DNA from: Escherichia coli
Lineage (GTDB): Bacteria > Pseudomonadota > Gammaproteobacteria > Enterobacterales > Enterobacteriaceae
DNA length: 64,000 nucleotides
Direction: 5' to 3' (one strand)
NCBI RefSeq assembly: GCF_045037415.1
Contig: NZ_CP173438.1
The position numbers were made by a program, and so were the translations under genes. Shown in pieces: positions 8,670 to 64,000 of the stretch; position 1 is the first letter of the stretch, and the number at the start of each line of letters is the position of its first letter. Under the pieces are notes generated by a model. That model did no database searches. It saw only the letters and a program-made list of their open reading frames with translations, and had not been told where the DNA came from.

Positions 8670-9705
8670 ATGAGCGATTCGTTTACTACGTCAGAACTGA
8701 TTACCGCGACACAGCAGGTATTTAAGTTCAATCCGTTGTTTTTAAAGCTGTTTTTCCGTGAGACCTACACGTTTACGAGCGAAGAGGTTTTTCTGGATAA
8801 AATCCCGGGAAAAGTGAACATGGCCGTGTACTGCGCGCCGATGATCACCGGCAAAGTTGACCGCACTCGCGGCTATTCAACGAACCATTTCAAACCGGGT
8901 TACACGAAACCCAAGCACACGATCAATCCGAATATGAGCATCAAGCGCGCAGCCGGTGAGCAGATTGGCCAGCCGGAAACGCCGGTCGAACGTCGTGCAA
9001 AAATCATCATGCAGAACCTGCTTGATGAGGAACTGAGCATCAGCCAGCTCGAAGAGTTCCAGGCGGTACAGGCTGTTCTGTACGGTAAATACACTGTTTC
9101 CGGCAGCAATATCGAGAACCTATGAGATCGACATGAGCCGCAGCGCGACGAATAACGTCACTCAGTCCGGTTCGACAGCCTGGTCGACTCAGGACGCGGA
9201 AACGTATGACCCGAGCGACGATATTGAATCCTACGCGGACCTCGCCTCCGGTGCGGTTAACGTGATCATCATGGATGGTAAAGCCTGGAAGCAGTTGAAG
9301 CGTTTTAAAAAATTCTGGACGGCACTGGATACGCGCCGTGGCTCAAACAGCCAGCTCGAGGTCGCGCTGAAAAACCTGGGCGACGTTGTCAGCTTTAAAG
9401 GCTACTACGGCGACACTGCGCTGTTTGTCTACAAAGGGCAATACCTCGACCCGGTAACAGACACTGAAACGCGTTATATGCCGGATAACACGATGATCCT
9501 TGGCAACACAAAAAACCGCGGGCTCCGCACTTATGGCGCAATTCAGGACGAAGACGCGCTGAAAGAGGGTATTTCCGAAGCGACGCGCTATCCAAAAGTC
9601 TGGACCACTACCGGTGATCCGGCAGTGACGCAAACAATGACGCAATCCGCGCCAGCAATGGTCCTCACGGACGCCGACGCGTTCGTTGTCGTAAAAATCG
9701 CGTAA
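8670..9705 (+). pseudogene. major capsid protein (lambda gpE-like) interrupted by +1 frameshift near 9115-9125; N part 8670..9125, C part in +1 frame to 9705
   Basis: Both ORF-track pieces (151 aa and 190 aa) align to consecutive parts of lambda E by recall; their start coordinates differ in frame (8670 vs 9133). Confidence 0.85.
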
Positions 9706-10567: not shown

Positions 10568-10948
10568 GTGGCCGATTTACGTAGTAACGCGCAGATGTTC
10601 GATATCGATGTTTCGGCGCTGGAGCAGCTCAGAGTCGAAATCAGCGCGACGCAACATCAAATGTTAATGGTATACAACAGGGCGCTGAACCGAACTGCAA
10701 AACATATGCACCGAATTTCAGCAGGAATGATTTTGACTGCACTGGCAGCTAAAAATCATAAGGCCGTAGATAAACGAATCAAGCCGTTCATTAAGCGCCG
10801 TAATTTTACAAAAGAAGGGGCAGGAGACCTGAGCAGCGCCAAGCTCTGGTACGGTCTGAATGATTTCCGGGTATCTGAGCTAAAGGGGCGATTACAAAAT
10901 CCACGGAGGCAAAAACAGCCTCGCGATCTTGAACCGGCCTGTTTTTGA
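10568..10948 (+). CDS. putative tail completion / virion morphogenesis protein
   Basis: ORF track; position between head and baseplate modules. Confidence 0.35.
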   Translation: MADLRSNAQMFDIDVSALEQLRVEISATQHQMLMVYNRALNRTAKHMHRISAGMILTALAAKNHKAVDKRIKPFIKRRNFTKEGAGDLSSAKLWYGLNDFRVSELKGRLQNPRRQKQPRDLEPACF

Positions 10949-47508: not shown

Positions 47509-49579
47509 TCTGGCCGCGATGCTGCGCCTGCCCGCAAACCTGAAATCGACACAATGGCAGATCCTTGCCGGACCGATTTTGATCCTGTTGATCTTGTCGA
47601 TGATGGTGCTGCCACTGCCCGCATTCATACTCGACCTGCTGTTTACCTTCAATATTGCCTTGTCGATCATGGTGTTGCTGGTGGCGATGTTTACCCAGCG
47701 CACGCTCGAGTTTGCTGCGTTTCCGACCATTCTGTTGTTTACCACGCTGTTGCGTCTGGCACTTAACGTGGCTTCAACCCGTATCATTTTGATGGAAGGG
47801 CATACCGGCGCGGCGGCGGCTGGAAAGGTGGTCGAAGCGTTCGGTCACTTCCTCGTCGGTGGCAATTTCGCTATCGGTATCGTGGTGTTCGTCATTCTCG
47901 TGATCATCAACTTTATGGTTATCACCAAAGGTGCCGGGCGTATTGCGGAAGTGGGCGCGCGCTTTGTTCTCGATGGTATGCCGGGTAAGCAGATGGCGAT
48001 TGACGCCGACCTTAACGCCGGATTGATTGGTGAAGATGAAGCGAAAAAACGCCGCTCCGAAGTGACTCAGGAAGCCGATTTTTACGGCTCGATGGACGGG
48101 GCAAGTAAGTTTGTTCGCGGCGATGCCATCGCCGGGATCCTCATCATGGTCATTAACGTTGTCGGCGGATTGCTGGTCGGTGTGCTGCAACATGGCATGA
48201 GCATGGGGCACGCGGCGGAAAGTTATACGCTATTGACCATTGGCGACGGTCTGGTGGCACAAATTCCGGCGTTGGTGATTTCTACCGCCGCGGGGGTCAT
48301 CGTTACGCGTGTCAGCACCGATCAGGATGTTGGCGAGCAGATGGTGAATCAGCTTTTCAGTAACCCAAGCGTTATGTTATTAAGCGCCGCCGTGCTCGGT
48401 TTACTCGGCCTGGTGCCTGGAATGCCAAACCTGGTATTTTTGCTGTTCACTGCCGGATTGCTGGGGCTGGCCTGGTGGATCCGCGGACGTGAACAAAAAG
48501 CGCCTGCCGAACCAAAACCGGTAAAAATGGCAGAGAATAATTCGGTAGTCGAAGCAACGTGGAACGATGTACAACTGGAAGATTCTCTGGGAATGGAAGT
48601 GGGGTATCGGTTGATCCCGATGGTTGATTTTCAGCAGGATGGTGAGTTGTTGGGCCGTATACGCAGTATCCGCAAGAAATTTGCCCAGGAGATGGGCTTC
48701 CTACCCCCAGTGGTGCACATCCGCGATAACATGGATTTGCAACCAGCCCGCTATCGTATCTTGATGAAAGGTGTCGAAATGGGGAGTGGTGATGCTTATC
48801 CGGGGCGCTGGCTGGCAATTAATCCAGGCACTGCCGCCGGAACATTACCTGGTGAAGCGACCGTTGATCCGGCATTTGGCCTGAATGCTATCTGGATTGA
48901 AAGTGCGCTTAAAGAACAGGCGCAGATTCAGGGGTACACCGTGGTTGAGGCCAGCACGGTGGTGGCAACGCATCTTAACCACCTCATTAGCCAGCATGCC
49001 GCAGAGCTGTTTGGTCGTCAGGAGGCACAACAGCTGCTGGATCGCGTCGCCCAGGAGATGCCAAAGCTGACGGAAGATCTCGTTCCTGGCGTCGTCACGC
49101 TTACCACACTGCATAAAGTGCTGCAAAATCTGCTCGATGAAAAAGTGCCGATTCGCGATATGCGCACCATTCTCGAAACGCTGGCGGAACATGCGCCCAT
49201 CCAAAGCGATCCGCATGAATTAACCGCTGTCGTGCGCGTAGCGTTGGGACGGGCGATTACCCAGCAGTGGTTTCCTGGCAAAGATGAAGTCCATGTTATT
49301 GGCCTCGATACACCGCTGGAACGTTTGTTGCTACAGGCGTTGCAAGGCGGTGGTGGACTGGAGCCAGGGCTGGCGGATCGTTTACTGGCGCAAACTCAGG
49401 AAGCGCTATCCCGTCAGGAGATGTTGGGTGCGCCGCCGGTATTGTTGGTGAACCACGCGCTACGACCATTATTGTCTCGCTTCCTGCGCCGCAGCTTGCC
49501 GCAGTTAGTGGTGCTGTCGAATCTGGAACTATCAGATAACCGACATATCCGTATGACGGCGACGATTGGCGGCAAATAA
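47501..49579 (+). CDS. flhA: flagellar export protein FlhA
   Basis: MSNLAAMLRLPANLKSTQW... 692 aa; ORF track starts 25 codons upstream. Confidence 0.95.
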   Translation: MSNLAAMLRLPANLKSTQWQILAGPILILLILSMMVLPLPAFILDLLFTFNIALSIMVLLVAMFTQRTLEFAAFPTILLFTTLLRLALNVASTRIILMEGHTGAAAAGKVVEAFGHFLVGGNFAIGIVVFVILVIINFMVITKGAGRIAEVGARFVLDGMPGKQMAIDADLNAGLIGEDEAKKRRSEVTQEADFYGSMDGASKFVRGDAIAGILIMVINVVGGLLVGVLQHGMSMGHAAESYTLLTIGDGLVAQIPALVISTAAGVIVTRVSTDQDVGEQMVNQLFSNPSVMLLSAAVLGLLGLVPGMPNLVFLLFTAGLLGLAWWIRGREQKAPAEPKPVKMAENNSVVEATWNDVQLEDSLGMEVGYRLIPMVDFQQDGELLGRIRSIRKKFAQEMGFLPPVVHIRDNMDLQPARYRILMKGVEMGSGDAYPGRWLAINPGTAAGTLPGEATVDPAFGLNAIWIESALKEQAQIQGYTVVEASTVVATHLNHLISQHAAELFGRQEAQQLLDRVAQEMPKLTEDLVPGVVTLTTLHKVLQNLLDEKVPIRDMRTILETLAEHAPIQSDPHELTAVVRVALGRAITQQWFPGKDEVHVIGLDTPLERLLLQALQGGGGLEPGLADRLLAQTQEALSRQEMLGAPPVLLVNHALRPLLSRFLRRSLPQLVVLSNLELSDNRHIRMTATIGGK

Positions 49580-49971
49580 TGAGAGCCTTATTAGCAATAT
49601 TATTGTTTCCGCTGCTGGTGCAAGCCGCCGGGGAGGGGATGTGGCAGGCGAGTAGCGTGGGCGTTACGCTAAATCATCGCGGTGAATCGATGTCGTCAGC
49701 GCCTCTTTCTACGCGACAACCTGCTTCAGGATTGATGACGCTGGTGGCGTGGCGTTATCAGCTTATCGGTCCGACACCTGCAGGACTGCGGGTTCGCTTG
49801 TGTTCACAATCTCGTTGTGTCGAATTGGAGGGGCAGAGTGGAACCACCATGGCCTTTTCCGGTATACCGGCGGCAGAACCGTTGCGCTTTATCTGGGAAG
49901 TGCCTGGCGGTGGGCGGCTAACTCCGCCGCTAAAGATTCAACGGAATGAAGTGATTGTAAATTATCGTTAA
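49579..49971 (+). CDS. flhE: flagellar protein FlhE
   Basis: 130 aa with signal peptide. Confidence 0.9.
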   Translation: MRALLAILLFPLLVQAAGEGMWQASSVGVTLNHRGESMSSAPLSTRQPASGLMTLVAWRYQLIGPTPAGLRVRLCSQSRCVELEGQSGTTMAFSGIPAAEPLRFIWEVPGGGRLTPPLKIQRNEVIVNYR

Positions 49972-49974
49972 TGA

Positions 49975-50006
49975 TAAAAAAGCCGATGTCTGCAATGACA
50001 TCGGCT
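49975..50006. terminator. bidirectional intrinsic terminator between convergent flhE and argS
   Basis: A6-AGCCGATGTC-TGCAA-TGACATCGGCT. Confidence 0.7.
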
Positions 50007-50023
50007 GTTGCCGTATAACGCGA

Positions 50024-51757
50024 TTACATACGCTCTACTGTCTCAATACCCAGCGTATCCAGACCCAGCTTCAGCGTCTTCGCCGTCAGTTGTGCCAGTT
50101 TCAGACGGCTGTTACGCACTTCTTCGTTTTCTGCGCTGAGGATCGGGCAGTGCTCATAGAAGCCAGAGAACAGACCGGCCAGATCGTACAGGTAAGCACA
50201 CATCACATGCGGCGTGCCTTCACGGGCAACCACAGTGAGGGTTTCTTCAAACTGCAGCAGGCGAGCTGCCAGTTGCGCTTCACGATCTTCACGGATGATT
50301 ACCGGAGCTGCAGCCAGTTGCTCTTCGTTAATTTCTGCTTTACGGAACACGGACAATACACGCGTGTAAGCATACTGCATGTATGGCGCGGTATTACCCT
50401 CAAACGCCAGCATGTTGTCCCAGTCGAAGATGTAGTCCGTGGTGCGGTTTTTGGAGAGATCCGCATATTTCACCGCACCAATACCAACCGCGTTAGCCAG
50501 TTTTTCCAGCTCGTCGGCTGGCATATCCGGGTTCTTTTCTGCCACCAGACGACGTGCACGCTCCAGGGCTTCATCCAGCAGATCGGCCAGTTTCACCGTA
50601 CCGCCAGCGCGGGTTTTGAACGGTTTACCATCTTTGCCCAGCATCATGCCGAACATGTGGTGTTCCAGCGGTACGGATTCCGGTACATAGCCCGCTTTAC
50701 GGACGATCGCCCATGCCTGCATCAGGTGTTGATGCTGACGGGAATCGATGTAATACAGCACGCGATCGGCATGCAGTGTTTCATAACGATATTTCGCGCA
50801 GGCGATATCAGTGGTGGTGTAGAGATAGCCGCCATCTTTCTTCTGAATGATAACGCCCATCGGTTCGCCTTCCTTGTTTTTGAACTCATCAAGGAATACA
50901 ACGGTCGCGCCTTCACTTTCTACTGCCAGACCTTTGGCTTTCAGGTCCGCCACGATACCCGGCAGCATTGGGTTGTAGAGACTTTCACCCATGACGTCAT
51001 CGCGGGTCAACGTCACGTTCAGACGATCGTAGGTGATCTGGTTCTGCGTCATGGTGATGTCGACCAGTTTGCGCCACATCTCGCGGAAATATTCGTCACC
51101 GCTTTGCAGTTTTACCACGTAGTTACGTGCACGCTCGGCAAACTCTTCATCCTCGTCGTAATGCTTTTTCGCATCGCGGTAGAAACCTTCAAGGTCAGCC
51201 AGCTCCATTTCACCGGCGTTTTCCTGCTGCTGCTTTTCCAGCCATGCAATCAGCATACCGAACTGAGTGCCCCAGTCGCCGACGTGGTTTGCGCGAATCA
51301 CTTTGTGACCGAGGAACTCCAGAGTACGAACTGCTGCGTCACCAATAATGGTAGAGCGCAGGTGACCGACATGCATCTCTTTCGCCACGTTTGGCGCAGA
51401 GTAGTCAACCACAATGGTCTGTTTTTCTGGCGTAGCAACACCGAGACGATCGGACGCCAGCGCCTGCTGAACATGTTCAGCCAGGAATGCCGGATCAAGG
51501 AAAATGTTGATAAAGCCTGGACCGGCGATCTCAACTTTGCTGGCGATACCGTTAAGATCCAGATGAGTCAGCACCTGCTCTGCTAATTGTCGCGGTGCCA
51601 TACCCAGTTTTTTAGCAACTGCCATCATGCCGTTAGCCTGATAGTCGCCGAACTGAACTTTTGCTGACTGACGAACCTGCGGTTCGCAATCCGCAGGCGC
51701 GCCTGCCGCAATCATGGCCTGACGGACTTTTTCTGAGAGAAGAGCCTGAATATTCAC
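50024..51757 (-). CDS. argS: arginyl-tRNA synthetase ArgS
   Basis: 577 aa class I aaRS with HVGH motif. Confidence 0.97.
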
Positions 51758-52543: not shown

Positions 52544-53299
<756 letters not shown>

Positions 53300-53686
53300 T
53301 TTTTACCGTTGCATCATGTCGCCCAATATGATGCTTGCTCGTACCAGGCCCCTGCAATTTCAACAGGGGCCTTTTTTTATCCCTGAGTAGTATAAAAAAC
53401 GAACGATTGCCGTGATCTGTTGAGCGGGTGACAGTGCGCATAGCATTGTGCTAGAAATATTCTATATATTCACATTCATTATGTGATTTAAATTGCCAAA
53501 ACTGACAAATATATATTCTAAATAACAACTGGGTTATTCCTTAGCAATTAATGATTACATTGTAATAAATCATATTCTTTATCGATTATTTCAGGCAGTG
53601 TTGTGCCGAATTAAGCAAGTAGTCAATTCGTTGTATATTTATTTATACAATGGTATCGGTGTCCTGGAATTTAATTAGAGGAATCT

Positions 53687-60202: not shown

Positions 60203-60228
60203 ACAGTTAACATGACGGGTATTAAGGA

Positions 60229-61542
60229 TTAACTTACTGATTTTAATAAGCCTCTGGTGTCACTTTGGTGACTATGGGGCATCATTGGGACATAATCTGT
60301 CAGCTTCTGATTCAGCATTGCGATCTGTTCTGCATTGCTGTCAGTCATCCATGCTCCGTATACATTGAATACCATCTGGGCACTTGCATGGCCCATCTGG
60401 CTGGCAATGAAGCTTGGGTTTGCTCCGGCAGATAATGACCAGCACGCATAAGTGTGTCGTGACTGGTATGCCTTTCGATGCCTGATCCCTGCACGCTTAA
60501 TGGCTGTTTCCCATGAGTCACCTACAGAATCGACTTTGTAGACAAAACCTACCTGTTCGCTTTTTCTAACCACTTGAGGGTTAAACACGAAAGTACATTC
60601 ATGGTTCACTGAACGTCCATATTCACGTAGTTGCACCTTGATGTTGTACTGCTTACCCAGTCTTGTCATTTCAGCCTGATTTTTCAGGACACTGATAGCG
60701 GGCTGGATAAGGTGCACAACCCTGTTTGTGCTTGCTTCAGTTTTCGGTAGAGTGAACTCACCAAGTTTCGTATAATTGCGCCTGATGGTAATTGTTCCTG
60801 CCTTCAGATCGATATCTTCCCAGGCCAGGGAAACCAGTTCACCGTGACGCATTCCTGTGTACACAGCCAATGACCACAGGTTTTTCGTCTGCTGATGTCG
60901 GCAAGCATCTATCAGGCGAATAAATTCGTCACGAGTTAGCGGATCTGGCTCTGCCCTGGCTCTTTTAAGAGGCTTAATTCCCTGGAAGGGATTTGCTTCT
61001 AAGTAACCGTGATCTGCAGCAAACTGAAACATTCCAGCGATTGTCGTCATGTAATAATTTACAGTAACGACGCTCCGTCCTTTTGCTGCTGCTTTGTTTT
61101 TCGTTGAATTCTGATACCCGGTAAGCAAATCTTTCCTGATATACAGCAATTCCTCTTTGGTTACCGATGACACCAGTCTACTGCCTCCAATTTTCGGAAC
61201 CATCGTTCTTGCAACGGATTCATAGCGATTGAATGCATTTGCAGAGATTTCCATTCGTTTCAGATCCAGCCACTTTTCTTCAAGTTCCTTCACCGTAATT
61301 TCTTTTTTACTTACCCCAAAAGCCTGAAGGTTGGGGGAGTCAGGGAACTGTGCAGCATAATCAAAGCTTCCTGTGCGGATGGCAAAACATACTGATGTCC
61401 GCAGTTCCCCGGCGATCTTCCTGTTCTTGGCAGTGTCAGGGACACCAAGATTTTCCCTGACACGTTTACCTTTAAAATTAAACCAGATGCGTAATGTGCC
61501 GCCGTGGTTTTCGACGCCTGTTGGATATTTGACTTTATCCAT
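60229..61542 (-). CDS. int: phage integrase (tyrosine recombinase), 3' end abuts/overlaps yecE 5' region
   Basis: 437 aa; N-terminal arm-binding-like domain and C-terminal catalytic region with conserved R..H..R..Y context. Confidence 0.85.
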   Translation of the reverse strand: MDKVKYPTGVENHGGTLRIWFNFKGKRVRENLGVPDTAKNRKIAGELRTSVCFAIRTGSFDYAAQFPDSPNLQAFGVSKKEITVKELEEKWLDLKRMEISANAFNRYESVARTMVPKIGGSRLVSSVTKEELLYIRKDLLTGYQNSTKNKAAAKGRSVVTVNYYMTTIAGMFQFAADHGYLEANPFQGIKPLKRARAEPDPLTRDEFIRLIDACRHQQTKNLWSLAVYTGMRHGELVSLAWEDIDLKAGTITIRRNYTKLGEFTLPKTEASTNRVVHLIQPAISVLKNQAEMTRLGKQYNIKVQLREYGRSVNHECTFVFNPQVVRKSEQVGFVYKVDSVGDSWETAIKRAGIRHRKAYQSRHTYACWSLSAGANPSFIASQMGHASAQMVFNVYGAWMTDSNAEQIAMLNQKLTDYVPMMPHSHQSDTRGLLKSVS

Positions 61543-61597
61543 CGATACCTCCAGACGCCCAAGAGCGATACGAGCTTACATATTTCATGATATTAAA

Positions 61598-61834
61598 TCA
61601 CCTGGGTTGTTTGTTTTTCATTGAGGCGACCCAGGCATCTATTGCTTTTCTGTTATACATACATTCACTGGAAGGCTTTGGATTACCGTCTGGTGATACG
61701 TGAATATACTCTCTTCCAACCATCCAGCATTCTTTCCGGGCCCGAAGAATTGTGCCTGGTTTGAGCCCGGTAATTGCGATAAGAACGCTTTCACAAACCC
61801 ATTCATTGGGAGCCAGTTGAATCACATTGCCCAT
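61598..61834 (-). CDS. xis: putative excisionase
   Basis: 78 aa ORF immediately upstream of int. Confidence 0.55.
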   Translation of the reverse strand: MGNVIQLAPNEWVCESVLIAITGLKPGTILRARKECWMVGREYIHVSPDGNPKPSSECMYNRKAIDAWVASMKNKQPR

Positions 61835-61842
61835 GTATTACC

Positions 61843-61989
61843 TCACACAACACTCAGCCCACGGCAGTGGCAACACACTTCAAACATTCGCTTCACAACT
61901 TCACGACAGTAGAAGCCGTCAACATCTCGCGTCAGGTCATAGCGATTGCCGTAACGCTGGTGGACCCATCGTTCAAATGCTTTATTCAT
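61843..61989 (-). CDS. small Cys-rich protein (48 aa, CCHC cluster)
   Basis: Hand-translated; ATG 3 nt after upstream stop; below ORF-track cutoff. Confidence 0.4.
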   Translation of the reverse strand: MNKAFERWVHQRYGNRYDLTRDVDGFYCREVVKRMFEVCCHCRGLSVV

Positions 61990-61992
61990 TCT

Positions 61993-62235
61993 TTACTTCC
62001 TTTTTATGGCTCGTAATTTTTTCAGGTGCTTTTCCTGCTCAGTGTCCGCGAGAATTTTGCGGTACTCCTGGTGGTCAATATGTTCGAACAGGCAGTTTAA
62101 CTCACCAATGCGTACCCGCCCGGATCGTCCGTCCATCCGTCGAAAGAACACTGAGTGCTCAGTGATGCGAGTAATCACCACGGGGTATCCGGCTCTGTCC
62201 GTGTATATCTGACCGCGTTGAATCAAAGCGAACAT
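61993..62235 (-). CDS. hypothetical early protein (80 aa from ATG at 62235)
   Basis: ORF track 61993..62289 with internal ATG closely following upstream stop. Confidence 0.5.
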   Translation of the reverse strand: MFALIQRGQIYTDRAGYPVVITRITEHSVFFRRMDGRSGRVRIGELNCLFEHIDHQEYRKILADTEQEKHLKKLRAIKRK

Positions 62236-62239
62236 GTGG

Positions 62240-62323
62240 TTATCCCCAGCGGCAAATCGAATACACCACCAGCGCCACCGCCATCGCAATTCCTACCGTT
62301 GTTAATGCTTCAGGCCAGGTCAT
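62240..62323 (-). CDS. 27-aa hydrophobic peptide [27 protein letters not shown] (single predicted TM helix)
   Basis: Hand-translated; ATG overlaps upstream stop (ATGA); GGAGG 9 nt upstream. Confidence 0.4.
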
Positions 62324-62664
62324 CGTAAAATATCCTCCACGCTTATCAGTCCGTTCCGCTCCAGATAACTCATCGCCTTATCCGGTAATTTGCAGTCTGG
62401 CTTCGCTTTCCTCAGTTGCCAGGTTAACTGCTTTACCAGCATGGTTAACTCATCGACCAGACGCTGATATCCCACTGGTTTGTATTCATGCAATTTACCG
62501 GCTGGCTCTGCTACCAGCGATACCAGTGCGATTTCCAGAACAGCAATATCCATCTTATATGTGCGGATGATGTCATGGTCGATTGTGCCCGGTATGCACA
62601 GTCTCTGTGCTTCAATAGTCTCCTCTGCGTGAGCTATTAACTGCTCTCTGGTAAAAGTCGTCAT
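62320..62664 (-). CDS. hypothetical early protein (114 aa), divergent member of paralogous family
   Basis: ORF track; shares MTT.T.E start and ..IALVSL.AEP motif with the two paralogues upstream. Confidence 0.6.
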
Positions 62665-62827
62665 GCCGTAGCCCCTTCTTGATATTTTTCAAACCAGAAC
62701 ACAACCGGCTCTGCTTCCAGCGATACCAGCGCAATCCGTGCCAGTTCCATTTGTTCACCACGGGTAAGCCCGTTTTCAAGCGGATTTTTAATGAACAATT
62801 CAATACGTTCTTTGGTAATAGTGGTCA
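62660..62827 (-). CDS. 55-aa protein [44 protein letters not shown]..., stand-alone copy of the N-terminal module of the 136-aa paralogue
   Basis: Hand-translated; AGGAG RBS; ATGA overlap with downstream gene. Confidence 0.5.
62700..62827. repeat. copy 1 of about 125-bp imperfect direct repeat (about 88 percent identical to 63388-63514)
   Basis: Aligned by eye. Confidence 0.7.
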
Positions 62828-62838
62828 TGTGTTACTCC

Positions 62839-63102
62839 TTAACCCGCAGTGCTTTCAACTGATGAGGGGAACAAAATCTTTTCATCAAACCCTGCATTCA
62901 TATCATGGACAGCAACACACCAATCCATTGACGAACGATTATCAAGAGCCTCCATGATTTCATCCATGCGGCGCAGGTCATACAGGTAAATGCTTTTATC
63001 GCCAATGGTGTAAAAACCAATTTTTTTCGGTGATGGGCAGCGATCAAGAACGTCCTGTAATTCGTTCAACCATGCCCGTTCTTTTTTTGTTAAAGTTGCC
63101 AT
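62839..63102 (-). CDS. hypothetical early protein (87 aa from ATG at 63102)
   Basis: ORF track 62839..63213; internal ATG with AAGGAGAGTGA RBS just after upstream stop. Confidence 0.5.
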   Translation of the reverse strand: MATLTKKERAWLNELQDVLDRCPSPKKIGFYTIGDKSIYLYDLRRMDEIMEALDNRSSMDWCVAVHDMNAGFDEKILFPSSVESTAG

Positions 63103-63103
63103 A

Positions 63104-63514
63104 TCACTCTCCTTTCCCATGAAGCATAGCGGCGCGGCAGGCGTTCCAGCCTGTAGCGTATGCAGCCGCTTTGCTGCTGCCTTCAACTGGCGCATCCTGC
63201 CAATACATTTCATCCGGCACTACCGGCGCTGGCAAGGCAGCGTGATAGTAGAGTGGCATAGTTTTGTACAGTGGTTCGCCAGGACTTCCGTCAACCTGAT
63301 TCCATTCTTCAACCCAGGCATCAACAACCGCTTTGCTGGTTGATACATGTTCTTCTGAATCTACATTTTGTCCTGATATACAGAACATAACTGCCTCTGC
63401 TTCCAGCGATGCCAGAGCAATTCGTGCCAGTTCCATTTGTTCGCCACGAGTAAGTCCGTTATCAAGCGGATTTTTAATGAATAATTTGATACGTTCTTTG
63501 GTTATAGCGTTCAT
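63104..63514 (-). CDS. hypothetical early protein (136 aa), N-terminal module [40 protein letters not shown]
   Basis: ORF track 63104..63556; ATG at 63514 with AAGGAGAGTGA RBS. Confidence 0.55.
   Translation of the reverse strand: MNAITKERIKLFIKNPLDNGLTRGEQMELARIALASLEAEAVMFCISGQNVDSEEHVSTSKAVVDAWVEEWNQVDGSPGEPLYKTMPLYYHAALPAPVVPDEMYWQDAPVEGSSKAAAYATGWNACRAAMLHGKGE
63388..63514. repeat. copy 2 of about 125-bp imperfect direct repeat
   Basis: Aligned by eye. Confidence 0.7.
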
Positions 63515-63515
63515 C

Positions 63516-63881
63516 TCACTCTCCTTTGATGCGAATGCCAGTAGCGCGGATTGCATCGATGACTTCAGAAACTTTGTATGCCATTACCGTTTGGTAATCA
63601 TCGTGAAAATCTGTTCGATGAAGCATGCTGCTACGTTCCGGGAGCGATATTTCCCGAGCATCCAGTTCCTTAACGCGCTCCTCCAGTTCGTAGACCCTGC
63701 ATTGTTCTCTATCATCAATCAGATATAACCCAAGACATTCGCTTTCTACCCAACCGCCAAAATCATGATCGTAACGCTCACATGAAAACTCACCGTCACC
63801 GTCCTTTGTTGGAATGGTGTAACTATCTAATGGGCCACCATATGTCGGCACATTTCCCAATGTTGGATGCTCAATCCACAT
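63516..63881 (-). CDS. hypothetical early protein (121 aa)
   Basis: ORF track. Confidence 0.5.
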   Translation of the reverse strand: MWIEHPTLGNVPTYGGPLDSYTIPTKDGDGEFSCERYDHDFGGWVESECLGLYLIDDREQCRVYELEERVKELDAREISLPERSSMLHRTDFHDDYQTVMAYKVSEVIDAIRATGIRIKGE

Positions 63882-64000
63882 GAAAAATGCACGTCCGGTT
63901 ATTGGGCAAATATCTGGCCGCCATTGGTTACGAACAGCCTTGGTTTCGGATAATTCTTCAGCGTGTTGTTTTACTTCCTCAAGCTCAACTCTCAGCTTCC

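What the first reader, a model, noticed from the sequence alone, without database searches (positions are those of the whole stretch)
49972..50023. flhE and argS are directly adjacent, with no gene between them
Only about 52 bp with a shared bidirectional terminator separates the two convergent genes. As I recall the K-12 map, a small gene (yecT) lies between them, so this would be a strain-variable spot.
Basis: established knowledge. Interest (0 to 1): 0.2.

Follow-up and report, generated by a model that had tools for sequence, protein, structure and literature searches.

The report
yecT-less flhE–argS junction, common allele
In this E. coli strain the flagellar gene flhE and the arginyl-tRNA synthetase gene argS are separated by 52 bases holding one terminator hairpin, because the strain carries the common, old version of this spot that lacks the small K-12 gene yecT; this is ordinary strain variation.

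Summary
flhE (49579-49971, +) and argS (50024-51757, -) converge on a 52-bp spacer (49972-50023). The spacer holds one 10-bp-stem hairpin (49981-50006). K-12 MG1655 has 784 bp at this position, carrying yecV and yecT.

This is a clean two-allele polymorphism. The short junction occurs in 1,782 of 5,426 complete E. coli genomes, including B2 strains SK1144 and UTI89 and an ST394 strain. The yecT allele occurs in 3,642.

The two spacers share no homology from stop codon to stop codon. The short spacer, with the same stem, is also present in E. albertii. The yecT segment has 39% GC against 53-54% in the flanks, and the literature reports it as H-NS/StpA-repressed. I therefore read the window as an old "empty" allele, not a recent deletion. 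This polarity is inferred.

"Bidirectional terminator" is only half supported. The T-tract is canonical for argS, but the flhE side reads GUUGCC.

One added point: the nearest non-Escherichia YecT homologues (59-64% identity) lie inside type VI secretion clusters next to peptidoglycan-hydrolase effectors. yecT is therefore probably an orphan immunity gene, and this strain lacks it.

Interest is low and the feature is already visible in public annotation.

The parts
49579..49971 (+). flhE coding sequence (130 aa), last gene of flhBAE
   Evidence: ORF list. Pfam FlhE PF06366, E=4e-41. Annotated as flhE in the 100%-identical SK1144 record.
49969..49974 (+). Tandem in-frame stops TAA-TGA at the end of flhE. 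In E. albertii and L003 the first codon is CAG/CAA and TGA is the stop.
   Evidence: Sequence; alignment of short alleles.
49972..50023 (.). 52-bp flhE-argS intergenic spacer: the short (yecT-less, yecV-less) allele
   Evidence: Same junction in 1,782 of 5,426 complete E. coli genomes. Homologous 55-bp spacer in E. albertii L006 and in L003.
49981..50006 (.). Stem-loop: arms 49981-49990 and 49997-50006 (10 bp, 6 G-C pairs), loop 49991-49996
   Evidence: Fold (-17.0 and -17.6 kcal/mol). Terminator scan. The stem is invariant and the loop variable across six Escherichia short alleles.
49969..49980 (-). T-rich tail of the argS intrinsic terminator (minus strand reads TTTTTATCATTA). It runs into the flhE stop codon.
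   Evidence: only the minus-strand site passes the scan.
50007..50018 (+). Poor U-tract on the flhE side (GTTGCCGTATAA). G at 50007 is T in other short alleles (GGCTTTTG).
50024..51757 (-). argS coding sequence (577 aa), convergent with flhE
   Evidence: ORF list. 99.8% aa identity to K-12 ArgS. Annotation.

Best explanation
The window comes from a phylogroup-B2-type E. coli that carries the short allele of the flhE-argS intergenic region.

Shown:
- The two convergent genes are 52 bp apart.
- The spacer holds a single strong hairpin whose U-tract lies on the argS strand. It is the Rho-independent terminator of argS. For flhBAE it offers a hairpin preceded by A6, but only a weak U-tract (UGUUG here, UUUUG in other strains).
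- About one third of complete E. coli genomes have this allele. About two thirds have a non-homologous 784-bp allele carrying yecV and yecT, with separate terminators.

Inferred:
- The short allele is the older 'empty' state of the site in Escherichia. The same stem occurs in E. albertii and in another Escherichia lineage.
- The AT-rich, H-NS/StpA-repressed yecT segment was acquired later. It is itself old: it is present in E. whittamii and Escherichia sp. E1V33 at species-level divergence. It has since segregated, or been exchanged by homologous recombination, among Escherichia lineages.
- yecT most likely encodes a periplasmic LprI/DUF1311-type immunity protein orphaned from a type VI secretion effector/immunity island. 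On this reading the practical consequence for this strain is the lack of that one immunity gene and of the 14-aa YecV.
For: Anatomy:
-.

K-12 comparison:
- The K-12 intergenic region is 784 bp with yecV and yecT.
- It has no homology to the 52 bp apart from ATAAAAAAGCC.
- Its GC is 39%, against 53-54% in flhE and argS.

Population:
- The flanks are present in 5,425 of 5,426 genomes.
- The short junction is in 1,782 genomes and the yecT segment in 3,642.
- Short-allele carriers include SK1144, which is B2 (PMC12366417), UTI89, and EcPF15, which is ST394 (PMC7427188).
- Long-allele carriers include K-12, MC4100 and B strains, plus O26:H11, O104:H4, O121:H19, O157-like and O55:H7 strains.

Age of the alleles:
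- The short spacer in E. albertii and L003 has the identical stem GCCGATGTC/GACATCGGC.
- The yecT segment of K-12 is 94.3% identical to E1V33 and 91.8% to E. whittamii. That is about the same as the flanking argS (93.8% and 93.9%) and flhA-flhE (93.3% and 91.8%).
- Other enterobacterial genera carry different genes here: an MFS transporter plus GH88 hydrolase, or GH88 plus a class-B PBP. None has yecT.

yecT biology:
- YecT matches Pfam LprI, E=1e-17.
- It is BglJ-RcsB activated and H-NS/StpA repressed (PMC3950696).
- Homologues of 59-64% identity sit directly upstream of PAAR-TssM and downstream of VgrG and pesticin-like, CHAP or phage-lysozyme effectors.
- DUF1311 proteins are reported as T6SS immunity proteins (PMC12981562; PMC9796082).
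Against: - Polarity rests on few outgroups. E. fergusonii, E. marmotae and E. ruysiae were not identified among the loci, and the species identities of L003 and L004 are unknown.
- The yecT allele is as old as species-level splits, so 'ancestral' versus 'derived' within E. coli is not resolved.
- No target-site duplication, integrase or other insertion signature flanks the yecT segment. One search found only an 11-bp repeat of doubtful significance.
- Termination at the hairpin was not measured on either strand.
- The immunity function of YecT is inferred from the genomic context of 60%-identical homologues. One such homologue (L071) is not in a T6SS cluster.
Confidence: 0.8

Rival explanations
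1. The window's lineage once carried yecT and lost it by deletion, leaving the 52-bp junction.
For: yecT is present in two other Escherichia species-level lineages (L004, L005) and in two thirds of E. coli. A gain before the E. coli radiation followed by loss is therefore conceivable. IS1 insertions disrupt the yecT region in some strains (H33, H81, H107), so the locus is prone to damage.
Against: The 52 bp contain no remnant of the 784-bp allele. The same hairpin stem and spacer architecture occur in E. albertii and L003, and independent deletions would not recreate them. Short-allele E. coli strains are themselves deeply diverged in flhE, with 13-25 differences per 330 nt. The allele is therefore not a recent event.
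Confidence: 0.12
2. The long (yecT) haplotype entered the ancestor of E. coli A/B1/C/E by homologous recombination from a cryptic-clade Escherichia. Alternatively, the short one was re-imported into B2/D. On either version the dimorphism is introgression, not retained ancestral polymorphism.
For: In the last 330 nt of flhE, K-12 (long) differs from E1V33 (long) at 16 sites but from the window (short) at 26. In the first 600 nt on the argS side, K-12 differs from the window at 13 sites and from E1V33 at 44 (sliding windows). The flhE 3' end therefore groups by allele, not by species.
Against: The signal is confined to about 300 bp and a patch in flhA. flhE is hypervariable even among short-allele strains. 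K-12 versus E1V33 identity in the yecT segment (94.3%) is barely above that of flanking core genes, so any transfer was ancient. The window's flhE is not closer to E. albertii or L003 than K-12's is.
Confidence: 0.3
3. The junction is an assembly or sequencing artefact (a collapsed region).
For: Relative to SK1144 the window has a few single-base indels elsewhere, so its sequence quality is not perfect.
Against: The identical 126-bp junction is present in many independent complete genomes, including UTI89. It is annotated flhE|argS with nothing between.
Confidence: 0.01

Closest known systems
E. coli K-12 MG1655 argS-yecV-yecT-flhE region (b1876-b1878, NC_000913.3 1960062-1962972)
   Same: Same flanking genes in the same convergent orientation. 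ArgS is 99.8% and FlhE 94.6% identical at the protein level. The argS terminator sits at the same distance, with the same GGCTTTTTTAT ending.
   Different: 784 bp instead of 52 bp. It carries yecT and yecV, has a different argS terminator stem, and has an extra 14-15-bp-stem hairpin between yecT and flhE. No sequence homology across the spacer.
Short flhE-argS junction of UTI89 / SK1144 (B2), EcPF15 (ST394) and E. albertii NBRC 107761
   Same: Same architecture and identical stem. UTI89 and SK1144 are 100% identical over 126 bp.
   Different: Other E. coli short alleles and E. albertii have TTTTG after the hairpin where the window has TGTTG. E. albertii and L003 have a 9-nt loop and a 55-bp spacer.
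Intrinsic terminators shared by convergent genes ('bidirectional terminators'; Ju, Li and Liu 2019 Nat Microbiol, cited from memory)
   Same: A single G+C-rich hairpin between two convergent stop codons, with an A-tract on one side.
   Different: The U-tract is present on one strand only. The plus-strand tail fails the consensus scan.
LprI/DUF1311 T6SS immunity proteins (Etsi4/Z0245 of EHEC; orphan LprI genes of the Pantoea agglomerans hcp island)
   Same: YecT has the LprI domain and an N-terminal signal-like sequence. Its 59-64% homologues sit in T6SS effector/immunity islands.
   Different: yecT in E. coli stands alone between argS and flhE with no T6SS genes nearby, and it is absent from this window. 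No assay links YecT to any effector.
flhE-argS interval of other Enterobacteriaceae (Salmonella, Citrobacter, Enterobacter, Leclercia and others)
   Same: Same flanking genes; the interval is a variable cargo site.
   Different: These genera hold 2-4 kb with an MFS_2 transporter plus GH88 hydrolase, or GH88 plus a class-B PBP. By position the PBP is probably Salmonella PBP3SAL, which is from memory; PMC7933661 states that PBP3SAL is absent from E. coli.

Membership tests
Rho-independent (intrinsic) terminator, argS strand | G+C-rich stem-loop shortly after the stop codon | tested here: met
   10-bp stem with 6 G-C pairs and a 6-nt loop, starting 17 nt after the argS stop; -17.0 kcal/mol.
Rho-independent (intrinsic) terminator, argS strand | Run of U immediately 3' of the stem | tested here: met
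   Tail TTTTTATCAT; passes the scan.
Rho-independent (intrinsic) terminator, argS strand | Transcripts actually end there | not testable with these tools
   Needs 3'-end mapping in a short-allele strain.
Bidirectional terminator (also serving flhBAE) | U-tract 3' of the hairpin on the second strand as well | tested here: not met
   The plus-strand tail is GTTGCCGTATAA, and no plus-strand site is called at the hairpin. Other short alleles have TTTTG, which is still below the scan's threshold.
Bidirectional terminator (also serving flhBAE) | Hairpin lies downstream of both stop codons and is conserved | tested here: met
   9 nt after the flhE stop and 17 nt after the argS stop. The stem is invariant in six Escherichia short alleles. 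With no variation there is no covariation support either.
yecT (LprI/DUF1311 family) locus | An LprI-domain ORF between argS and flhE | tested here: not met
   No ORF in the 52 bp. No YecT-like sequence anywhere in the window (best E=0.48).
Mobile-element insertion as origin of the yecT segment (in K-12-type strains) | Terminal inverted repeats, target-site duplication, or a transposase or integrase | tested here: not met
   The repeat finder on the K-12 region gives only short two-copy repeats, and no boundary-matched pair except an 11-bp repeat at the yecT stop and the flhE 3' end. There is no recombinase gene. Four plasmid-collection records carry yecT at 96-99% protein identity: three are very large E. 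coli records that I judge to be chromosomal sequence filed as plasmids, and one is a 5-kb Klebsiella oxytoca record that I did not follow up.
Horizontally acquired, xenogeneically silenced DNA (yecT segment) | Deviant base composition and H-NS-family repression | tested here: met
   39% GC against 53-54% in the flanks. H-NS/StpA repression and BglJ-RcsB activation come from the literature, not from tests here (PMC3950696).
T6SS orphan immunity gene (yecT) | Close homologues encoded next to T6SS effectors | tested here: met
   In 4 of 5 informative contexts the homologue lies directly upstream of a PAAR gene. Three of those also show TssM downstream and VgrG or peptidoglycan-hydrolase effectors upstream. 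The fifth context is non-T6SS.
T6SS orphan immunity gene (yecT) | Protein neutralises a cognate effector | not testable with these tools
   Needs co-expression or competition assays.

The most novel reading that the evidence does not exclude
The flhE-argS spot holds an ancient, trans-species presence/absence polymorphism of an orphan type VI secretion immunity gene (yecT). E. coli A/B1/C/E, E. whittamii and E1V33 keep it. B2/D-type E. coli (including this strain) and E. albertii keep the empty site. Short-allele strains would then be specifically vulnerable to a lysozyme-like T6SS effector of other Enterobacterales, with the two haplotypes maintained by differing competitive environments.
Probability: 0.25. 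Interest if true: 0.4.

Novelty: already known. Interest (0 to 1): 0.15.

Why it matters
It matters little in itself. This is a routine accessory-gene difference, visible in the RefSeq annotation of thousands of genomes, plus a textbook terminator. It has three modest uses:
- It is a clean, near-binary marker: 1,782 versus 3,642 of 5,426 complete genomes. B2 and ST394 strains sit on the short side, and K-12, B1-type and O157-type strains on the long side.
- It warns that K-12-based maps (yecT, yecV, the BglJ-RcsB target promoter) do not transfer to B2/ExPEC strains.
- It gives a testable hint that the uncharacterised yecT is an orphan T6SS immunity gene, which this strain lacks.

Tried and rejected
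- A global MAFFT alignment of window versus K-12 misplaced the flhE flank. I replaced it with BLAST blocks and local alignments.
- The left arm of the short-allele hairpin looked similar to K-12 'GATGTCTTGTTGCAAT'. I rejected this. Other long alleles read CATGTTTTGTTGCAA there, forming the arm of a different hairpin (a 14-15-bp stem), so the resemblance comes from K-12-specific substitutions.
- I searched both Escherichia alleles for remnants of the MFS, GH88 or PBP genes found at this site in other genera. The best hit had E=0.037, on the wrong strand, among 51 queries, so it is not significant.
- I looked for a yecT paralogue in the window and found none.
- I searched for yecT on plasmids. 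There are four close hits: three very large E. coli records that look like chromosomal sequence filed as plasmids, and one 5-kb Klebsiella oxytoca record that I did not follow up. The remaining hits are distant alphaproteobacterial and betaproteobacterial LprI proteins at 32-36% identity.
- No solved structure matches YecT by sequence.
- I tried to read the state of reference phylogroup-D strain UMN026 by accession, but the record is not in the collection. A full phylogroup tally was therefore not made.
- Literature searches for 'yecT' and 'b1877' found no paper describing this polymorphism.
- A 21-nt 71% repeat with 722-bp spacing and an 11-bp exact repeat in K-12 were judged compatible with chance.

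Full report
**Observation**

The window carries flhB (46360-47508), flhA (47501-49579) and flhE (49579-49971) on the plus strand. argS (50024-51757) lies on the minus strand, followed by yecM and cutC. The last base of the flhE stop codon and the argS stop codon are separated by exactly 52 bp (49972-50023).

No ORF fits in this spacer. tblastn with K-12 YecT finds nothing anywhere in the 64-kb window.

The spacer holds one hairpin:
- Sequence AGCCGATGTC-TGCAAT-GACATCGGCT, at 49981-50006.
- Free energy -17.0 to -17.6 kcal/mol.
- The 76-nt context has z-scores of -3.8 and -4.1, and none of 200 shuffles folds as well.

**Comparison with K-12**

In MG1655 the same two stop codons are 784 bp apart. 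The interval carries yecV (14 aa, MSIFRIHLDGNKKA) and yecT (162 aa).

The difference is not a clean indel. Outside the coding sequences the two alleles share only ATAAAAAAGCC at the argS terminator and the last three bases.

K-12 has its own argS terminator with a different stem (AAGCCTGATC...GATCAGGCTT). It also has a separate 14-15-bp-stem hairpin between the convergent yecT and flhE.

The flanks are ordinary E. coli orthologues: 97.1% identity on the argS side and 96.3% on the flh side.

**Is the terminator bidirectional?**

The consensus scan calls a terminator only on the minus strand, with tail TTTTTATCAT running into the flhE stop codon. On the plus strand the hairpin is preceded by A6 but followed by GTTGCCGTATAA.

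Other short alleles (strains XDL, EcPF15 and THO-008, and E. albertii) read GGCTTTTG at this point. The window type, which includes UTI89 and SK1144, has G at 50007.

The hairpin is therefore shared, but it is a canonical terminator only for argS. Its role for flhBAE is plausible and unproven. The stem is invariant in all six short alleles while the loop varies. That shows conservation, but provides no covariation.

**Population frequency**

- The flanks occur in 5,425 of 5,426 complete E. coli genomes.
- A 126-bp probe across the short junction is covered at 80% or more in 1,782 genomes.
- The K-12 784-bp segment is found in 3,642 genomes.
- Together these make 5,424, so the site is effectively biallelic.

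Short-allele carriers include SK1144, which is 99.97% identical to the window over 60 kb and is phylogroup B2 according to PMC12366417. They also include UTI89 and EcPF15, which is ST394 according to PMC7427188. ST394 is phylogroup D from my own knowledge.

Long-allele carriers include K-12, MC4100 and B strains, and O26:H11, O104:H4, O121:H19, O55:H7 and O157-like strains. From my own knowledge these are phylogroups A, B1 and E.

I could not tabulate phylogroups for all genomes.

**Age and polarity**

A scan of species-representative genomes with FlhE gave four other Escherichia lineages:
- E. albertii (L006) has a 55-bp spacer with the same stem as the window.
- A lineage labelled E. coli but only about 93% identical in argS (L003) has the same.
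- E. whittamii (L005) carries yecT in a 771-bp spacer.
- Escherichia sp. E1V33 (L004) carries yecT in a 787-bp spacer.

Divergence of the yecT segment between K-12 and those species is 94.3% and 91.8% identity. This is about the same as in the flanking core genes. Both alleles are therefore old.

Several observations point to the short allele being the older, never-occupied state, with yecT acquired within the genus:
- The short spacer is homologous between E. coli and E. albertii.
- The short spacer contains no trace of the long one.
- The yecT segment has 39% GC against 53-54% in the flanks.
- yecT is reported to be H-NS/StpA-repressed and BglJ-RcsB-activated (PMC3950696).

This polarity is an inference. 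I estimate it at about two chances in three.

The last 330 nt of flhE group by allele, not by species: K-12 differs from E1V33 at 16 sites and from the window at 26. argS groups by species: 13 versus 44 differences per 600 nt. This hints at old recombinational exchange of the haplotype. The signal is short, however, and flhE is hypervariable even among short-allele strains.

**Wider context of the site**

In 25 loci from other enterobacterial genera where argS was within reach, flhE and argS are 2-4 kb apart. The interval holds an MFS_2 transporter plus a GH88 hydrolase, or, in Salmonella and the Citrobacter freundii group, GH88 plus a class-B penicillin-binding protein. None has yecT.

No remnants of these genes survive in either Escherichia allele. 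The interval is thus a long-standing cargo site at the edge of the flh operon.

**What the missing gene probably is**

YecT matches Pfam LprI/DUF1311. A protein search found Escherichia and Shigella copies plus a group of full-length homologues at 59-64% identity.

In four of the five contexts with informative neighbouring genes, that homologue lies immediately upstream of a PAAR gene. In three of those it is also followed by TssM and preceded by VgrG and peptidoglycan-hydrolase effectors (pesticin-like, CHAP, or phage-lysozyme plus M23). The clusters are attributable to Citrobacter tructae-like, Pantoea/Enterobacter-like and Mangrovibacter genomes. One context (L071) is not T6SS.

These genes are also about 38% GC, within clusters of 49-55% GC. 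No other part of those clusters exists in E. coli.

DUF1311 proteins are documented T6SS immunity proteins: Etsi4/Z0245 in EHEC (PMC12981562) and the orphan LprI genes in Pantoea (PMC9796082).

I therefore infer that yecT is an orphan immunity gene. The window's strain, like a third of E. coli, simply lacks it.

**Verdict**

The junction is annotated in more than 1,700 public genomes, and the mechanism (an intrinsic terminator between convergent genes, plus an accessory-gene dimorphism) is textbook. The only mildly new angle is the orphan-immunity reading of yecT together with the trans-species age of the dimorphism. Both are untested.

Noticed in passing
window 1-22650: Prophage late region next to yecA: Q antiterminator, holins, terminase, portal, capsid, and P2-like baseplate, sheath and tube genes. 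Relative to the otherwise 99.97%-identical SK1144, the window has single-base insertions at 9117 (splits the major capsid ORF into 8670-9125 and 9133-9705) and 21773 (truncates the gpD/VgrG-like ORF), and a deletion at 10932. These are either sequencing errors or real frameshifts.
   Followed up: partly
window 42955-43106: tap is missing. Only about 150 bp encoding a Tap/Tar-like N-terminus (MFNRIRISTTLF...) remains between tar and cheR, and it is annotated as a pseudogene in SK1144. This is consistent with the reported lack of Tap in uropathogenic/B2 strains (Lane et al. 2006, from memory).
   Followed up: partly
window 60223-64000: A second, lambdoid prophage is integrated in yecE. It has an integrase at 60229-61542 on the minus strand (Arm-DNA-bind_2 plus Phage_integrase), an excisionase and ead/Ea22-like genes. 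It is absent from SK1144 and present in the same form in 77 complete E. coli genomes.
   Followed up: partly
window 53071-53378 (+) and 41123-41200 (-): Rfam finds MicL sRNA inside the 3' end of cutC (371 bits) and C0465 RNA between cheW and tar (112 bits). No RNA family matches in the flhE-argS spacer.
   Followed up: no
window 49579-49971 (flhE): flhE is unusually polymorphic within E. coli: 22-28 differences per 390 nt between strains, including between two short-allele strains. The adjacent argS has 2-18 differences per 600 nt.
   Followed up: partly
L007-L061 (other genera), between flhE and argS: The interval holds an MFS_2 transporter plus a GH88 unsaturated glucuronyl hydrolase in most genera. 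In Salmonella and the Citrobacter freundii group it holds GH88 plus a class-B PBP, probably PBP3SAL. L042 has an extra 198-aa ORF with no Pfam hit.
   Followed up: partly
L069 6001-6486, L070 5573-6058, L072 5001-5486, L074 516-1001: YecT-like genes (59-64% identical) occupy a fixed slot immediately upstream of the PAAR gene in T6SS clusters, after arrays of small unannotated ORFs that may be further orphan immunity genes. In L071 the homologue instead sits near flgD/flgE.
   Followed up: partly
L001 5457-5467 and 5586-5596 (K-12): An exact 11-bp direct repeat, GATAATTCACA, sits at the yecT stop codon and at the 3' end of flhE, bracketing the 119-bp yecT-flhE spacer. It could be a microhomology left by the acquisition event or a chance match.
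   Followed up: no
E. coli genome hits H33, H81, H107: Some K-12-type strains carry IS1 inserted in the yecT region. In H33, yecT is no longer annotated.
   Followed up: no
window 27973: The window lacks a TA dinucleotide present in SK1144, in the ftnB-araF intergenic region.
   Followed up: no
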